Shown here in pieces: positions 19,261 through 39,134 of a DNA stretch of 43,521 bases. The stretch is from a virus. Taxonomy: Duplodnaviria; Heunggongvirae; Uroviricota; Caudoviricetes. The stretch lies in the IMG/VR virus record IMGVR_UViG_2872185964_000007. One strand, written 5' to 3'. The position numbers and the translations under genes are program-made. The notes beneath the pieces are model-generated. The model searched no databases and was not told where the DNA came from. It saw only the letters and a list, made by a program, of their open reading frames with translations. How positions within the stretch are numbered: position 1 is the stretch's first letter; each line of letters begins with the position of its first letter.

Positions 19261-19527
19261 GTTGGAGTCATTACCCGGTTGGGGATCACCAGCCTTGAAG
19301 AGTATGCCCGCCACTTTAACTGCGTGATACGGAATTTTTAAAAATCACTAAAGAACGCCCAAGAGCATGTTTTTTATTTAGAAGAATCAAAGCGTTGTAT
19401 TTCCATGTCATATAAAAATCGGCAAAGTTCATATGTAACAAAGTGTCCCAATCATGCCCCAAAATGCCCCACAACAAATATTTTTGCCCCATGCATGCCC
19501 CAAAAAATCACTTTCCTTCACCCTTGA

Positions 19528-19575
19528 TACTGTTTATCCATACAGTTAAAAATGATACTGTATACAAACACAGTG
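19528..19575. promoter_or_regulatory. Two LexA (SOS) boxes: TACTGTTTATCCATACAGTT (19528-19547) and TACTGTATACAAACACAGTG (19556-19575)
   Basis: Both fit CTGT-N8-ACAG; lie 14-60 bp upstream of the dinI-like start codon. Confidence 0.7.
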
Positions 19576-19588
19576 TAGAGGGACTTTT

Positions 19589-19837
19589 ATGCGTATTGAA
19601 ATCTGCATAGCCAAAGAAAAAATGACTAAAATGCCAACCGGTGCTGTGGATGCGTTAAAGGAAGAATTAACCCGACGCATCAGTAAACGTTATGACGATG
19701 TAGAGGTGATCGTAAAAGCTACCAGCAACGATGGCCTTTCTGTTACGCGCACCGCCGATAAAGATTCAGCTAAAACTTTTGTTCAGGAAACTCTGAAAGA
19801 TACCTGGGAGTCTGCTGACGAGTGGTTTGTTCACTAA
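19589..19837 (+). CDS. DinI-like DNA-damage-inducible protein (prophage-borne)
   Basis: 82-aa ORF with the MRIE...TWESADEWF pattern of DinI; GAGGGA RBS; LexA boxes upstream. Confidence 0.8.
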
Positions 19838-19972
19838 TTAGCACGTAAAATCTGTAACGGCTGGAAATCATTCAATACTCGCACTATCGGAAGTTCACCA
19901 GCCAGCCGCGGTACGTTCTTACATACGATGTACCGCTGTTCTCTTTACGATTTATAGCTGTACTGGTGAATT

Positions 19973-20296
19973 ATGAGCAATCTGAATCCATGCATGACGT
20001 GTGGTGCCTGTTGTGCATTTTCCGCGTCTCTTTTTACTGGGCAGAAGCTGACGATGCTGGCGGAAAGGTTTCGGTCAGTCTCACTGAGCAAATATCTCCT
20101 TTTCATCGCTGTATGCGCGGCACCAATCAGAAAAATCCCCGATGTGGCGCTCTTGCCGGCCCCCCGGAGAAAACGCATATTGCTCTGTTTACAAAAACCG
20201 TCCACATGCAGGGAATTCGCAATGTCCGGCGAAAATAGCATCGTAAATGAAGCATGTAATCGCGCACGGGAAAAATATGGATTTCCAAAAATCTGA
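19973..20296 (+). pseudogene. YkgJ-family CxxCxxCC zinc/iron-chelating domain protein, two frameshifts
   Basis: N-terminus [16 protein letters not shown], middle and C-terminus ([12 protein letters not shown]...) are in alternating frames (ORFs 19973-20296 and 19966-20238). Confidence 0.55.
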
Positions 20297-20437
20297 ATAT
20301 TCTCCGCCGTGCAAAAATGCGAACAACATCACTTCACTAATCAACCTGACATGGCATACTTAGCACGCTAACTATGATAACAAACTAATACCCTAAAACT
20401 CATGGTTCCGGGACTGGTCGTGGTCCCGTTTTTTTAT

Positions 20438-35347: not shown

Positions 35348-35398
35348 CTCAGCCTCCTGTGAAAAAAGACACGGGGGCATTTCGCCCCCGCTCACGGA

Positions 35399-36426
35399 TT
35401 ATTTCACCTGTACCACCACAAACTCATCCGGATCCGGCAGCACCATCAGCGGTGCGGACTGCGTCATGGTGAATTCACAGGACGGATCGCCCACAGTCAG
35501 CCAGTGTTTCGGATAACGGGAAGAGGCCACCACACCTTCGGACAACGCCTGCGCATCCTGAATGGCACCATAGCAACGAATGCCCTCTGCTGCCGTATTC
35601 CCCAGGACCAGTGTGCCCTCCGGCAGATAACGTTTTTCGGTACCGTCCTCTGCCACATAAGACGTTTTCGCCACCACAATGGCCAGATCGCCGTAATACC
35701 CCTTGAAGGACACCACCGCCCCAGGTCTTTCACTGCCGTTTCGAGTTGTGAATTTGAGCCGCGACGGGTATCCAGTTTTTCGCGGAACAGCTTAAAGCCA
35801 TTCAGCAGACGCCAGACCGTACCGTCCATAATGGCGATATTCACAAGGCCGCTGGCCTGATCGCAGTAGAGGTCAATATCATGCGTCGGATCAAACGTAT
35901 CACGGTCCTGCTCAGACCATTTTTTACCGTCAGCCTGCTCAATGTTATTTCCTTCAGAGCGCCCGAAATCCACCTCGACAGTATCAAACTGATCCCCTTC
36001 CATGGTGTATTTGCCATACAGCACGGCATTCACCGCCTGCATTTCTTCCACCTGGACAATGGCGTGCTCTTCCTGTTTGAGGTTATCGGTAATGATACGC
36101 AGACGACGGTAGGCCGGGTCGTTCAGCTGAGCCGGATCTTCACCAGGAAGGCGCTCAACCGCCTGCTGGTAATTAAATTCGTGTTTGGGCTTGACGTAGC
36201 CCGGACGTAACACGCGGGTTTCACCACCGCGATGGCGAAGCACTTTTCCTTCAACGATCGGGGAGACATAGGCCGCCACCGGCGTTTTTCCGGTAATTTT
36301 GTCCAGCATCACCTCTTCGGTGTGGAAATTCACCGTACGGCGGAAAAACAGCTCCAGAAACAGCGCACGGAATTTCACTTTTTGTTCGGTATAACCGAGT
36401 AACTGGCGGGTCGTAAACAATCCCAT
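35399..36426 (-). pseudogene. Major capsid protein E, frameshifted
   Basis: N-terminal ~250 residues in 35497-36426 and the C-terminal ~100 (...MTQSAPLMVLPDPDEFVVVQVK) in 35399-35716. Confidence 0.8.
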
Positions 36427-36483
36427 AAATCAGTTCCTTTCATTAAGAAATCAGTCAGGCCAACGCGGTGGCCTGATAACGTG

Positions 36484-36831
36484 TTACGGCAGCGCCGCGT
36501 GACTCAGGGCTGTGCCGGCAAAGGCATTTGCCTTTTTGTGTTCATCCCCACTGTCAGGCCAGCGGATTGCCTCCGTCGCAAAGGTCCCCGACTTGTAATA
36601 GGTCAGCACCGTCTCTGTGCCTTCAAGCGGCAGTACCAGTATGCCAACCGCACTACCGGCTTTCTGTCCATCCCAGACCACCAGTTTCCCGGTGGCTTCA
36701 TCCAGCATCAGGGGCGTCAGAGCCGGTGTTGCCGAGGAAATCCCGCTGCTGCCTGTGGCGGTGTGAGCCGGATCATTACCGGCAAAAATACGTACTTCCG
36801 CACGCTGTTCAGTGATGGTTTTCGTCACCAT
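36484..36831 (-). CDS. Head decoration protein D
   Basis: 115-aa ORF with the NDPAHTAT and TYYKSGTF motifs of lambda D. Confidence 0.75.
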   Translation of the reverse strand: MVTKTITEQRAEVRIFAGNDPAHTATGSSGISSATPALTPLMLDEATGKLVVWDGQKAGSAVGILVLPLEGTETVLTYYKSGTFATEAIRWPDSGDEHKKANAFAGTALSHAALP

Positions 36832-36867
36832 TTTGTTAAAACCTCATATTGATGGTCAGCACTGACT

Positions 36868-38372
36868 TCATGGCATGGCCATGAGCATTTTCACGTCCGC
36901 ATCACCGTCTGCTGACGTCTGTGACACGCCACCCCGCACCGCTGCCGGTGAATGATTCGCCATGAAATGTTCAAACAGGGCGGTTGTGGATGCAGAGACC
37001 GGTTCGGCCTTACCTGATCCCGCAGCCAGCACAGCCCGGGCGTTCTCCACGGTCATTCCCGGGCAGGCCGCCAGTTTTTCAGCCTGCGCTTCTGCCCCTT
37101 TTGCCTCATCCAGGGCCATGATCTGATCACGAAGTGAGGGCCCGGCATCCGCCAGTGGTGCAGCCGCCAGGATCGGGCGGGCTTTTTCCACCGTCATCTC
37201 CGGCATCGCCGCCAGCGTTGCCGCCAGTTGTTCACGACCGTTCGCTTCTTCACACGCCATAATGCGATCGGCTTCACTCTGCGCGGATGCCACCGGCTGC
37301 TGCGGTGCCGCCGCGGCCAGAATCGCCCGGGCCTGTTCAACGCTCATGCCCTGTTGCCCTGCCAGCATCGTGGCAAGCTGTTCACGTCCTTTCGCTTCCT
37401 GGCATGTCAGGATCCCCATCACTCGCTGGTTCTCCTGCACGGCGGCTTCCGTTGCAGTTAATTGCGGCATAGTGCCTCCTCTGACATTACTGTTCAGCGC
37501 CGTGGCCATCACACTGATGGCATCCGACGCATTGATTAATTCATCCGCCAGCCCGGCCTCAATGCCGGACTGACCTTCAAAAACAGCGGCCTCTGTTCCC
37601 GTGACTGCATCAACAGACAGACCGGTAAACATCGCCACTTTTTCGGCAAACATCCGGCGCGCCGCATCAATCCGCTGCTGCATGTCCTGGCGAACCTCTG
37701 CCGGCAACGCTTCAAACTGATTGCCATCCACCTTGTGCGCCCCTGAGTAAATCAGCGTGATATCCACACCGGCCTGCGCCAGATGACCGGCATAGCTGAC
37801 ATGGCTCATCATCACGCCAATGGAACCGATACGGGATGTCTGGGTAACCAGCCGTCGGGAGCAGGCCGACGCCAGCAGCATGGCCGCAGAACAGGCCGTG
37901 TCATTACACAGTGCCCAGACCGGCTTCTGCTGCCGGAGGCGGTAAATCATGTCAGCGCAGTCAAACACGCCGGCGGCCTGCCCGCCCGGACTGTCAATGT
38001 CCAGCAGTATGCCCCGCACCTGGCTATCTGCCATTGCCTGCTGAAGACAGGTGACAATGCCGTCATAGCCAGTCATTCCGGAAAATGGCCGCATCCCCCC
38101 AGCCGGTGCACCAGCGTGCCGGTCACCGGCAGTACCGCAATACCGTTCACCACCCGGTAAACACGGGCCGGTCGTTTACCTCCGGCCATGTACTCGTCCG
38201 TTTCAGCCAGCATCCCGGGAGCATCAAGCTGTACCTGCTGTTGCGGTACCGAAAGACTTGCTGCCCCCATCTCGCGCCCCAGCGCGCAAAAGAAAACCCG
38301 CGCATAGGCGGGCTCCAGAAGCAGCGGTTCATTGAATGCTGCTGCAATAATGTGTGAAAGATTACGTCTCAC
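36868..38372 (-). pseudogene. Head maturation protease/scaffold C (S49 family), frameshifted
   Basis: N-terminal ~100 residues (38073-38372) and the body (36868-38094) are in different frames. Confidence 0.75.
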
Positions 38373-39134
38373 GTGGTGTTGTCTCCTCTTCCGGCCTGCG
38401 ACTCTCCGCTATCTGCTGCTGATACGCCTGCGCTATCCACACCGGACGTGAGAGTCCGGCTTTTTCCCGCTCTGCAGATTCCCTGACCTGCTGGCAGAAA
38501 ATGTCCTGATAATCCTCGCCCATCAGCGCCAGCTCTTTCTCATACGTGCTCAGTCCGGCCTCAATGCGCATCACTGATTCCTGAACCTCCTTGAGCCCGT
38601 CAATGGCCATTCTTCCGGCTCCAATCCACTCAGCCCGTGACCAGGCTGATCGCGCCTGATAAAAATCAAACCGTGCCCGTGGCGGACGAATAATCCCCGA
38701 AGAAGTGCCTCTTCCAGCCAGCAGGAAAACATCTGCGTGGCCAGCCGGGACGCAATAAATTTTCGCCGCCCCATAAAATAGCGCCACGACTCATTGGCGG
38801 ATGCGCGGGCACTTGAGTAACTGACCTTCGAGTAATCACGGGACAACTGTTCGTAGGAAACGCCAAGACCGGCGGCGATATACCGCAGCAGCGCCTGTTC
38901 AAGCGCCGAAAATCCATTGTCTGAATCCTGCGCGGTCTGAAGTTTCAGATCATCACCGGGGAAAAGGTGCGGAATTTTGACACCGCCCAGCATCACGCTA
39001 TTCGTGTCATACCAGGTGGAGAACTTATCCAGAATATTAATAAGCGGATTATCCTTCTGCCCCTGCGGCGCACCGGCGATATATTCAAAGGCCTTTTCGG
39101 TATCAAGGTCACTTTCAATCGTCGCTGCATACAT
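38362..39134 (-). pseudogene. Portal protein B, 5'-truncated and frameshifted
   Basis: Only the C-terminal ~300 residues remain (ORFs 38571-39134 and 38362-38787); no upstream head genes or terminase follow. Confidence 0.75.

What the first reader, a model, noticed from the sequence alone, without database searches (positions are those of the whole stretch)
19327..39134. Prophage and IS inactivating lesions are concentrated at homopolymer runs: genuine decay or sequencing artefact
At least 11 lambda-like structural genes (stf, lom, J, I, K, H, G/T, FII, E, C, B) plus ykgJ-like, IS1111-type copy 1 and IS66 copy 2 carry frame breaks. Every break I could localise lies in a short homopolymer: G-run 2548-2551 (4 vs 5 in copy 2), C-run ~42147 (3 vs 4), G-run ~43499 (3 vs 4), C-run 24808-24811 in J, CCCGGGG 21735-21741 in stf. 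By contrast ruvC, yebC, nudB, aspS (3.5 kb) and several IS copies are intact, so the distribution is uneven. That favours real slipped-strand decay under relaxed selection, but homopolymer indels are also the classic signature of some sequencing chemistries.
Basis: seen in the sequence. Interest (0 to 1): 0.45.

Follow-up and report, generated by a model that had tools for sequence, protein, structure and literature searches.

The report
Mostly assembly errors at G/C runs
Most of the broken genes in this Shigella prophage remnant are one-base under-calls at short runs of G or C in a PacBio-only genome assembly, not biological decay; the real damage is a few larger deletions, insertion sequences and one shared frameshift.

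Summary
The prophage stretch 19327-39134 has 18 single-base frame breaks. All are deletions and all lie in G/C runs, which make up 7.9% of the bases. No A/T run is hit.

The favoured reading, real slipped-strand decay, fails for most sites. The window is CP026872.1, whose accession falls inside a PacBio-only Shigella series that a later study set aside because of "numerous indels in the homopolymers".

- Near-identical prophage copies in 20 or more other assemblies show that 11 of the 18 deletions occur in this assembly alone.
- Five more recur only in other assemblies, most of them unpolished-looking long-read ones, in patterns that do not fit descent.
- One further site (20160-20165) is short only in long-read assemblies of this batch.
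- Short-read-like and draft assemblies of close relatives have the longer run at every one of these 17 sites they cover.
- Adding one base per run restores every gene except lom. There are no nonsense codons.
- The window differs from its closest clean relatives by 8-9 substitutions and 10 one-base indels. Clean assemblies differ from each other by 49:1, 14:0 and 3:0.
- The intact housekeeping genes hold only five G/C runs of 4 or more, so zero hits there is expected (P about 0.5).

Real, shared lesions are the C-run frameshift in H (31760-31765), a 10-bp deletion in lom, a 31-bp deletion at G/T, loss of A-W-5'B, and the IS insertions.

The parts
19276..40290 (-). Defective lambdoid prophage remnant beside aspS/yecD. 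It runs from DinI and a ykgJ-like gene through tfa, stf, lom, J, I, K, L, M, H, T, G, V, U, Z, FII, FI, E, D, C and a truncated B to a nu1/cos-side remnant. It is bounded by IS1 (18507-19275) and an IS3-family element (about 40300-41500).
   Evidence: (95.9% identity to an E. coli O145 prophage; same aspS-yecD site as in O104:H4).
20160..20165 (.). C6 run in the ykgJ-like region. The run is C7 in L018, L020, L021, L025 and L026, and short in five long-read assemblies. Status ambiguous, leaning artefact.
21738..21741 (.). G4 run in stf, G5 in all 9 relatives. It splits stf into 300 + 111 aa. Seen only in this assembly: likely under-call.
   Evidence: The repaired 411-aa protein is identical to S. 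boydii ACD07718.1 and occurs on 163 contigs. The 300-aa fragment exists only in CP026872.1.
23842..23845 (.). G4 run in J, G5 in all 9 relatives. Seen only in this assembly: likely under-call.
   Evidence: The J 335-aa fragment exists only in this genome.
24808..24811 (.). C4 run in J, C5 in all 9 relatives. Seen only in this assembly: likely under-call.
   Evidence: The J 654-aa fragment is on one contig only.
27126..27129 (.). C4 run at the 3' end of I, C5 in 7 relatives. Also short in L022 and L024, both long-read assemblies. Likely under-call.
27299..27301 (.). G3 run in I, G4 in all 9 relatives. Seen only in this assembly.
   Evidence: The I 181-aa fragment exists only in this genome.
27394..27396 (.). 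C3 run in I, C4 in all 9 relatives. Seen only in this assembly.
27448..27451 (.). C4 run in I, C5 in all 9 relatives. Seen only in this assembly.
27480..27482 (.). C3 run in I, C4 in all 9 relatives. Seen only in this assembly.
28114..28118 (.). C5 run in K, C6 in most relatives. Also short in L012, and L019 has the same 108-aa K fragment. Recurrent among long-read assemblies.
   Evidence: The repaired K is identical to S. boydii ACD06367.1 and occurs on 56 contigs.
30992..30995 (.). C4 run in H, C5 in all relatives including the short contigs L040, L042 and L043. Seen only in this assembly.
   Evidence: The H 205-aa and 509-aa fragments exist only in this genome.
31760..31765 (.). C6 run in H, C7 in the L004-L009 copies. 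This is a real inherited frameshift: the same short allele (H split 113 + 718 aa) is in L040 (SRR15361493), L041 (AAVCAR01), L042 (SRR5312128), L043 (ERR200271), CP041513.1 and CP026795.1.
32072..32074 (.). C3 run in the last codons of T, just upstream of the H start. C4 in all relatives including L040-L043. Seen only in this assembly.
32468..32469 (-). Joint of a 31-bp deletion downstream of the G/T slippery heptamer GGGAAAG, which is retained. G runs on to 207 aa, and T is now +1 rather than -1 relative to G. Real lesion, shared by all Shigella copies examined.
34678..34681 (.). C4 run in FII, C5 in all relatives. Seen only in this assembly.
34849..34852 (.). C4 run in FII (G5T5 on the coding strand in intact copies). 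It is long in the lineage's clean copies L038-L041. The short allele recurs in 9 unrelated assemblies, four of which have many broken genes (L028, L029, L031, L032). Either a systematic miscall site or a hot spot.
35719..35722 (.). C4 run in E, C5 in all relatives. Seen only in this assembly.
38095..38100 (.). C6 run in C. C7 in L004, L007-L009 and L038-L040; also short in L005 and L012. Recurrent among long-read assemblies.
38695..38698 (.). C4 run in truncated B. C5 in most relatives including L038 and L040; also short in L005, L008 and L039. Recurrent among long-read assemblies.
22905..22906 (-). Joint of a 10-bp deletion (CGCACAGACG) in lom, which splits it into 103 + 93 aa. Real: shared by every relative with this lom, including draft L020 and Logan contig L026.
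39140..39141 (-). Joint of an internal prophage deletion that removes terminase A, W and the 5' part of portal B and joins B' to the nu1-side region. Real: the same joint is present in at least 50 E. coli genomes and in L038-L040.
39604..39770 (.). Three more deletions seen only in this assembly: G5 at 39604-39608, C3 at 39640-39642 and C4 at 39767-39770. Each is one base longer in L038-L040.
2548..2551 (.). G4 run that breaks the ISSso6 (IS110-family) copy 1 transposase. G5 in copy 2 and in E. coli copies.
4951..5477 (.). Two one-base deletions in island genes: G4 at 4951-4954 (DUF932 gene) and C4 at 5474-5477 (antirestriction gene). Each is one base longer in E. coli EPSSH018.
16728..16852 (.). 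Four one-base deletions in the 5' part of the ISEc20-like IS110 element inserted in yecD, at 16728-31, 16747-51, 16817-18 and 16850-52. Three are seen only in this assembly. 16747-51 is also short in L019 and L024.
18114..18509 (.). Two one-base deletions at C4 18114-18117 and G4 18506-18509. Both are also short in some long-read assemblies of this batch and long in draft L020 and L021.
42150..42152 (.). C3 run near the 5' end of tnpA in IS66 copy 2. Four bases in copy 1.
43497..43499 (.). C3 run in tnpC of IS66 copy 2. Four bases in copy 1 and in an E. coli copy.
12471..16138 (-). Control: ruvC, yebC, nudB and aspS are intact. There are no indels against E. coli O104:H4 or six Shigella assemblies. 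The stretch 12331-16400 holds only four G/C 4-runs and one 5-run.

Best explanation
The window is CP026872.1:1,180,577-1,224,097, a Shigella chromosome whose proteins match S. boydii-like strains. It appears to have been assembled from PacBio long reads without short-read correction.

Consensus calling from such reads tends to call G or C runs one base short, and more often the longer the run. Each under-call in a coding region looks like a frameshift. The prophage and IS sequences look heavily decayed because they are rich in G/C runs of 4-7 bases. The neighbouring housekeeping genes look clean because they have almost none.

About 16-17 of the 18 single-base breaks in the prophage, and most of the 14 or more outside it, are of this kind.

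Under the artefacts lies an ordinary defective Shigella prophage with real, inherited lesions:
- loss of A, W and the 5' part of B;
- a 31-bp deletion that puts T out of reach of the G/T -1 frameshift;
- a 10-bp deletion in lom;
- a true C7-to-C6 slippage in H;
- flanking IS insertions.

Shown here: the sequence comparisons and the counts. Inferred: that this record belongs to the PacBio-only batch, the sequencing platform of the comparison contigs, and the consensus mechanism itself.
For: 1. Source. An exact protein look-up places the window in GCA_002950295.1 / CP026872.1, and L010 is 100% identical to it. CP026774-CP026786 and CP026878 are attributed to Kim et al. 2018, the PacBio genomes of 59 historical Shigella strains (PMC7819885). 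Yassine et al. [quoted passage not shown]

2. Error-like signature. All 18 breaks are deletions, all in G/C runs, with hit rates of 4%, 42%, 33% and 100% for true lengths 4, 5, 6 and 7. No A/T run is hit.

3. Private or homoplasic distribution. Eleven of the 18 sites are short only in this assembly, when compared with 7-9 copies at 99.7-99.9% identity. Other assemblies of the batch carry their own different G/C-run deletions, for example L005 at 29784 and 30923, and L024 at 24269, 24700 and 25798. L004, L006, L007, L009 and L018, together with draft L020 and NCTC L021, carry no G/C-run deletions of their own.

4. Independent assemblies. L020 (draft), L026, L040, L042 and L043 (Logan contigs) and L041 have the long allele at every site that is short only in the window and that they cover.

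5. Ratios. The window against L026 shows 8 substitutions and 10 one-base indels. Against L040 it shows 9 and 10. Clean pairs give 49:1, 14:0, 1:0 and 3:0.

6. Repair test. Adding one base at 16 runs restores stf, J, I, K, H, T, FII, E and C to full length, with no nonsense codon. The repaired stf, K, H, FII and C are exact matches to S. boydii proteins found on 13-175 contigs. The truncated fragments J-654, J-335, stf-300, I-181, H-205 and H-509 exist only in this genome.

7. Precedent. A PacBio RS II-only finished genome had about 240 under-called homopolymers, confirmed as errors by Sanger sequencing and all of them deletions (PMC4687164).
Against: No reads were examined, so no single site is proven to be an error.

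That CP026872.1 belongs to the Kim et al. set is inferred from accession order and from neighbouring assemblies. The paper itself is not held.

At least one homopolymer frameshift is real (H, 31760-31765), so slippage does occur in this lineage.

The short allele in FII (34849-34852) recurs in nine other assemblies, including Logan contigs of unknown platform in which little else is broken.

For several comparison sets, relatedness and sequencing platform are confounded.

The restriction to G/C runs is not what the AT-rich PacBio precedent shows: it had T-run errors as well.
Confidence: 0.9

Rival explanations
1. The frameshifts are genuine recent slipped-strand mutations. They accumulated in this strain's non-functional prophage and IS copies under relaxed selection.
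For: The prophage is truly defective, so it is not under selection. One C7 run in H is truly shortened in the lineage and is seen in short contigs. Run-length dependence is also expected of real slippage. The housekeeping genes are intact.
Against: There are as many one-base indels as substitutions against the closest relatives (8:10 and 9:10), while clean assemblies give about 66:1 in total. All changes are deletions, none is in an A/T run, and there are no nonsense codons. Eleven sites are short in this assembly alone, while other assemblies of the same series carry different private sets. A 42% hit rate at 5-base runs does not fit a substitution divergence of about 0.1%. The intact housekeeping genes carry no information (expected 0.57 hits). 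A published warning covers this assembly series.
Confidence: 0.05
2. This is a mixture weighted more towards biology. The sites that recur across assemblies are real hypermutable or polymorphic runs, and only the sites unique to this assembly are errors. The recurrent sites are 20160-65, 27126-29, 28114-18, 34849-52, 38095-100, 38695-98, 16747-51, 18114-17 and 18506-09.
For: The short alleles at these runs are shared by 2-9 other assemblies. The H site proves that such polymorphism exists. The longest runs are expected to be the most mutable.
Against: The sharing patterns contradict one another and the substitution-based relationships. For example, 38695-98 is short in the window, L005, L008 and L039, whereas 38095-100 is short in the window, L005 and L012. 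At all these sites except 34849-52, the sharers are long-read-size assemblies, and the draft and short-read-like copies have the long allele. Four of the nine carriers of the short FII allele are full of other broken genes.
Confidence: 0.05

Closest known systems
Homopolymer under-calling in PacBio RS II-only finished bacterial genomes (C. autoethanogenum DSM 10061; Humphreys et al. 2015, PMC4687164)
   Same: The discrepancies are single-base deletions in runs of about 4-8 bases. They create apparent frameshifted genes in a closed genome, and adding one base restores full-length proteins.
   Different: In this window only G/C runs are affected and the local density is much higher: about 31 in 43.5 kb, against about 240 in 4.35 Mb. 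Here the errors are inferred by comparison with other assemblies, not by resequencing the same strain.
The Kim et al. 2018 PacBio genomes of 59 historical Shigella strains, as judged by Yassine et al. 2022 (PMC8795385)
   Same: The accession lies inside the series. Other assemblies in the same accession range (CP026762-CP026867) show the same kind of private G/C-run deletions. The published remark on numerous homopolymer indels matches what is seen here.
   Different: Membership of CP026872.1 in that set is inferred, not read from the paper.
Genuine pseudogene and prophage decay in Shigella (IS expansion, deletions, frameshifts)
   Same: The prophage remnant has IS-bounded ends, an internal A-W-B deletion, 10-bp and 31-bp deletions with short flanking homology, and one shared homopolymer frameshift in H.
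   Different: These real lesions are shared among relatives and across sequencing platforms, and most are not in homopolymers. The bulk of the breaks listed in the finding are not shared.

Membership tests
Long-read consensus homopolymer under-call (assembly artefact) | The changes are single-base length errors in homopolymer runs, biased towards deletions. | tested here: met
   18 of 18 in the prophage and at least 14 outside it are -1 changes in G/C runs. There are no insertions.
Long-read consensus homopolymer under-call (assembly artefact) | The error probability rises with run length, whatever the gene class. | tested here: met
   0/335, 4/105, 10/24, 1/3 and 3/3 for true lengths 3-7. The same kind of hits occur in IS, island and non-coding sequence. 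Zero hits in the housekeeping genes is as expected.
Long-read consensus homopolymer under-call (assembly artefact) | The changes are absent from independent assemblies of near-identical sequence made with accurate reads. | tested here: met
   L020, L026 and L040-L043 have the long allele at every site that is short only in the window and that they cover. Exact repaired proteins are in the S. boydii CDC 3083-94 genome (ACD accessions) and on 13-175 other contigs. The platform of the comparison contigs is inferred.
Long-read consensus homopolymer under-call (assembly artefact) | The assembly was made from long reads only, without short-read polishing. | tested here: inconclusive
   The accession lies within the Kim et al. 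2018 PacBio series, which is said not to have been edited with short reads. The source paper is not held.
Long-read consensus homopolymer under-call (assembly artefact) | Raw reads or resequencing of the same strain support the longer run. | not testable with these tools
   There is no access to read data.
Genuine slipped-strand pseudogenisation | The lesion is inherited, that is, shared by related strains in a pattern consistent with descent. | tested here: not met
   Met only for H 31760-31765. Eleven sites are unique to this assembly and the rest are homoplasic.
Genuine slipped-strand pseudogenisation | The indels are accompanied by a proportionate number of substitutions, including nonsense codons. 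| tested here: not met
   Indel-to-substitution ratios are 10:8 and 10:9, against 1:49, 0:14 and 0:3 among clean assemblies. There are no nonsense codons after repair.
Defective lambdoid prophage | Lambda-like order of late genes, with essential modules missing. | tested here: met
   The stf-to-B order matches E. coli O145 and O104:H4 prophages. A, W and the 5' part of B are deleted. No early, lysis or integration modules lie between the IS elements.
Phase-variable contingency locus | One long run (usually 7 or more) in a promoter or the 5' end of an ORF, switching a functional gene on and off. | tested here: not met
   The breaks are scattered over many short runs (true length 4-5 at most sites), at all positions in genes of a dead prophage.

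The most novel reading that the evidence does not exclude
A substantial share of the G/C-run shortenings are real. In that case this strain, or old stock cultures of it, went through a burst of G/C-run-specific -1 slippage far above the substitution rate. Such a mutational signature would differ from the known mismatch-repair-deficient spectrum, which also hits A/T runs and produces insertions.
Probability: 0.04. Interest if true: 0.4.

Novelty: not a real feature. Interest (0 to 1): 0.1.

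Why it matters
The value is practical. Pseudogene counts, prophage-integrity calls, IS activity estimates and allele-based typing made from this assembly and from others in its series will be inflated by one-base under-calls at G/C runs of 4 or more.

The case also shows that intact housekeeping genes nearby are not a valid control. Run content must be matched first.

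The biology underneath is ordinary: an IS-bounded, internally deleted lambdoid prophage remnant in Shigella with one shared homopolymer frameshift.

Tried and rejected
- **Source paper and accessions.** I tried to read Kim et al. 2018 (PMC5897796), but it is not held. Searches for CP026872, AMKD01, SRR22640834, PTES and UAUR accessions found nothing. The supplements of two Shigella typing papers are not held. One paper lists GCF_002950295.1 but its table does not clearly name the species, so I leave the species open.
- **Intact housekeeping genes as evidence of selection.** Rejected once run counts showed only five G/C runs of 4 or more in that stretch.
- **All 18 sites are artefacts.** This was my first assumption. 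I corrected it when the exact look-up of the H 113-aa fragment found it in four short contigs and two other complete genomes.
- **Mismatch-repair mutator.** Considered and rejected. There are no A/T-run indels, no insertions, and only about 10 private substitutions.
- **Weak polishing in repeats.** The errors might cluster in repeats because polishing is weak where paralogous prophages and IS copies exist. I could not test this, and run content alone already explains the distribution.
- **Repaired J protein.** The exact look-up found no match. The J of L026 differs by a few substitutions, so for J the support comes from DNA alignment only.

Full report
**What the region is.** Positions 19327-39134 hold the late operon of a lambdoid prophage on the minus strand, from stf, lom and J through H, E and C to a truncated B. 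The best E. coli matches are an O145 prophage (95.9% identity over 87% of the query) and an O104:H4 prophage at the same aspS-yecD site. The rest of the window holds:
- IS1, two ISSso6 (IS110-family) copies, IS2, and an IS66-family element plus a partial second copy;
- an ISEc20-like element inserted in yecD, and an IS3-family element;
- a CP4-like island;
- the housekeeping genes ruvC, yebC, nudB and aspS.

**Checking the observation.** Alignment to the O145 prophage gave 31 gaps. Every single-base gap in coding sequence was a deletion in the window, in or next to a G/C run.

Using closer relatives I fixed 18 single-base deletions in the prophage stretch. All are in G/C runs that are 3-6 bases long in the window and 4-7 in relatives. 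Such runs cover 7.9% of the bases, so 18 of 18 is far beyond chance. By true run length the hit rate is 0/335 (3), 4/105 (4), 10/24 (5), 1/3 (6) and 3/3 (7). None of 517 A/T runs is hit.

Two listed breaks are not homopolymer events. The lom break is a 10-bp deletion. The G/T region has a 31-bp deletion.

**Where the window comes from.** An exact look-up of the truncated J fragment found one contig in the whole collection: CP026872.1 of GCA_002950295.1. Locus L010 from that record is 100% identical to the window. The window is CP026872.1:1,180,577-1,224,097.

Accessions CP026774-CP026786 and CP026878 are credited to Kim et al. 2018, PacBio genomes of 59 historical Shigella strains (PMC7819885). 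A neighbouring assembly in the series is an S. boydii ATCC strain. Yassine et al. [quoted passage not shown] That this particular record belongs to the set is an inference.

**Comparison with near-identical copies.**
- Head-to-tail part (27803-39108). Seven copies from other assemblies are 99.7-99.86% identical. The window has six deletions seen nowhere else, three shared in inconsistent patterns, and four private substitutions. L005, L008 and L012 each carry different private G/C-run deletions. L004, L006, L007 and L009 carry none.
- J-lom-stf part. Against nine copies the window has seven deletions of its own. L024 has different ones. L018, L020 and L021 have none.
- yecD-aspS side. There are three deletions of its own plus three recurrent ones in IS or junction sequence, and none in aspS, nudB or yebC in any assembly.

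**Independent, cleaner assemblies.** Look-ups with the lom fragment and the H 113-aa fragment brought in several such assemblies:
- a draft contig, L020;
- Logan contigs that end at repeats, as short-read assemblies do: L026, which has 8 substitutions in 7.9 kb against the window, and L040, which has the same portal joint and IS3-family element as the window and 9 substitutions in 11.3 kb;
- smaller contigs L041-L043.

At every site that is short only in the window and that they cover, they have the longer run. Pairwise counts make the contrast plain. The window against L026 gives 8 substitutions and 10 one-base indels, and against L040 gives 9 and 10. L020 against L026 gives 49:1, L020 against L018 gives 14:0, and L040 against L041 gives 3:0.

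**Repair test.** Adding one base at 16 runs restores these genes to their full lengths with no nonsense codon: stf (411 aa), J (1157), I (228), K (247), H (870), T (137), FII (117), E (342) and C (501). Only lom and the truncated B stay broken. The 228-aa form of I still carries the short allele at a seventeenth run, 27126-27129. Clean copies, which have the long allele there, encode 226 aa.

The repaired stf, K, H, FII and C are exact matches to proteins of S. boydii, including the CDC 3083-94 genome, on 13-175 contigs. The fragments J-654, J-335, stf-300, I-181, H-205 and H-509 occur only in CP026872.1 among about 15 billion proteins.

**The housekeeping control.** ruvC, yebC, nudB and aspS show no indel against E. 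coli O104:H4 or six Shigella assemblies. But 12331-16400 contains only four G/C 4-runs and one 5-run. At the prophage's per-run rates the expected number of hits is 0.57 and P(0) is 0.50. The distribution is therefore not uneven once run content is taken into account. The same kind of deletion also occurs in island genes, IS copies and non-coding sequence.

**What is real.**
- The C-run in H (31760-31765) is short in L040-L043 and in CP041513.1 and CP026795.1, all of which are otherwise intact there. This frameshift is inherited.
- The 10-bp lom deletion is in every relative with this lom, including L020 and L026.
- The 31-bp deletion lies after the retained GGGAAAG heptamer. It extends G to 207 aa and shifts T to +1 relative to G, so the normal -1 G/T frameshift can no longer make the fusion protein. 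It is in all Shigella copies examined.
- B is joined to nu1-side DNA by a deletion of A, W and the 5' part of B. The same joint is present in at least 50 E. coli genomes.
- IS66 copy 2 has a TAG nonsense codon in tnpB.

**Remaining uncertainty.**
- The FII run at 34849-34852 (G5T5 on the coding strand) is long in the lineage's clean copies. It is short in nine unrelated assemblies. Four of these are riddled with broken genes. Three Logan contigs of unknown platform have little else broken. This is either a systematic miscall site or a true hot spot.
- Five further prophage sites and three flanking sites recur among long-read assemblies in patterns that conflict with each other. I read these as systematic errors, with less confidence.
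- No reads were available.

**Mechanism and precedent.** A PacBio RS II-only finished genome was shown by Illumina and Sanger resequencing to have about 240 homopolymer under-calls, all deletions, which created false frameshifted genes (PMC4687164). Long-read assembly errors in general are mostly homopolymer indels, with false deletions dominant (PMC12007338). The restriction to G/C runs seen here is an empirical feature of this batch of assemblies. I cannot cite a source that explains it.

**Verdict.** About 16-17 of the 18 prophage breaks, and most of those in the IS copies, are best explained as assembly under-calls (confidence about 0.9). One break is a real slippage event. The prophage's genuine decay consists of larger shared deletions and IS insertions. 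This is not a new biological feature.

Noticed in passing
window 42808-42810: IS66 copy 2 has a TAG stop in tnpB (Ser91 to stop), caused by a substitution relative to copy 1 (11439). This is a non-homopolymer lesion and looks real.
   Followed up: partly
window 32400-32540 (joint at 32468/32469): A 31-bp deletion lies just downstream of the retained G/T slippery heptamer GGGAAAG. T is now in the +1 frame relative to G, so the usual -1 frameshift cannot make the G-T fusion. The deletion is shared by all Shigella copies examined.
   Followed up: partly
window 27800-29200; L017-L022 compared with L023 and L025: Two paralogous prophages exist in these genomes, one with a lambda-type H and one with an HK97/TMP_3-type tape measure. 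In the window's genome and in CP026795.1, the lambda-type head-tail module sits next to the yecD-side J-lom-stf module. In CP026762.1 and others the TMP_3-type module sits there. This suggests an exchange or inversion between the two prophages through their shared L-K-I region.
   Followed up: no
window 24602-24625: There are twelve differences in 24 bases of J between the window plus L026 on one side and L024 plus L025 on the other, within otherwise near-identical sequence. It looks like a short conversion or mosaic patch.
   Followed up: no
window 26164-26227 and 24641: Five substitutions in J are found only in the window, three of them within four bases (26164-26167). I did not determine whether they are real or a consensus problem between paralogous J genes.
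   Followed up: no
window 25798-25803; L017, L019, L022, L024 (also L008 and L012): At this G/C 6-run in J the window has the long allele, while six other long-read assemblies have the short one (J split 322 + 835 aa). It is another recurrent site of uncertain status.
   Followed up: no
window 14234-14358: A 125-bp segment between nudB and aspS is absent from E. coli O104:H4. It is a common single-copy presence/absence polymorphism, present at this locus in 3753 of 5426 complete E. coli genomes.
   Followed up: yes
window 7457; L014 22544: Here the window has one base more than E. coli EPSSH018, whose cbtA is annotated as frameshifted. The window copy reads through.
   Followed up: no
window 16415-19275: yecD is split by an ISEc20-like IS110-family element (16662-18112) and is followed by IS1 (18507-19275). 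The same arrangement is found in most related Shigella assemblies, so these insertions are real and inherited.
   Followed up: partly
L027-L036 (FII region): The identical 80-aa frameshifted FII product occurs on 22 contigs from unrelated E. coli prophages. All have G4T5 in place of G5T5.
   Followed up: partly
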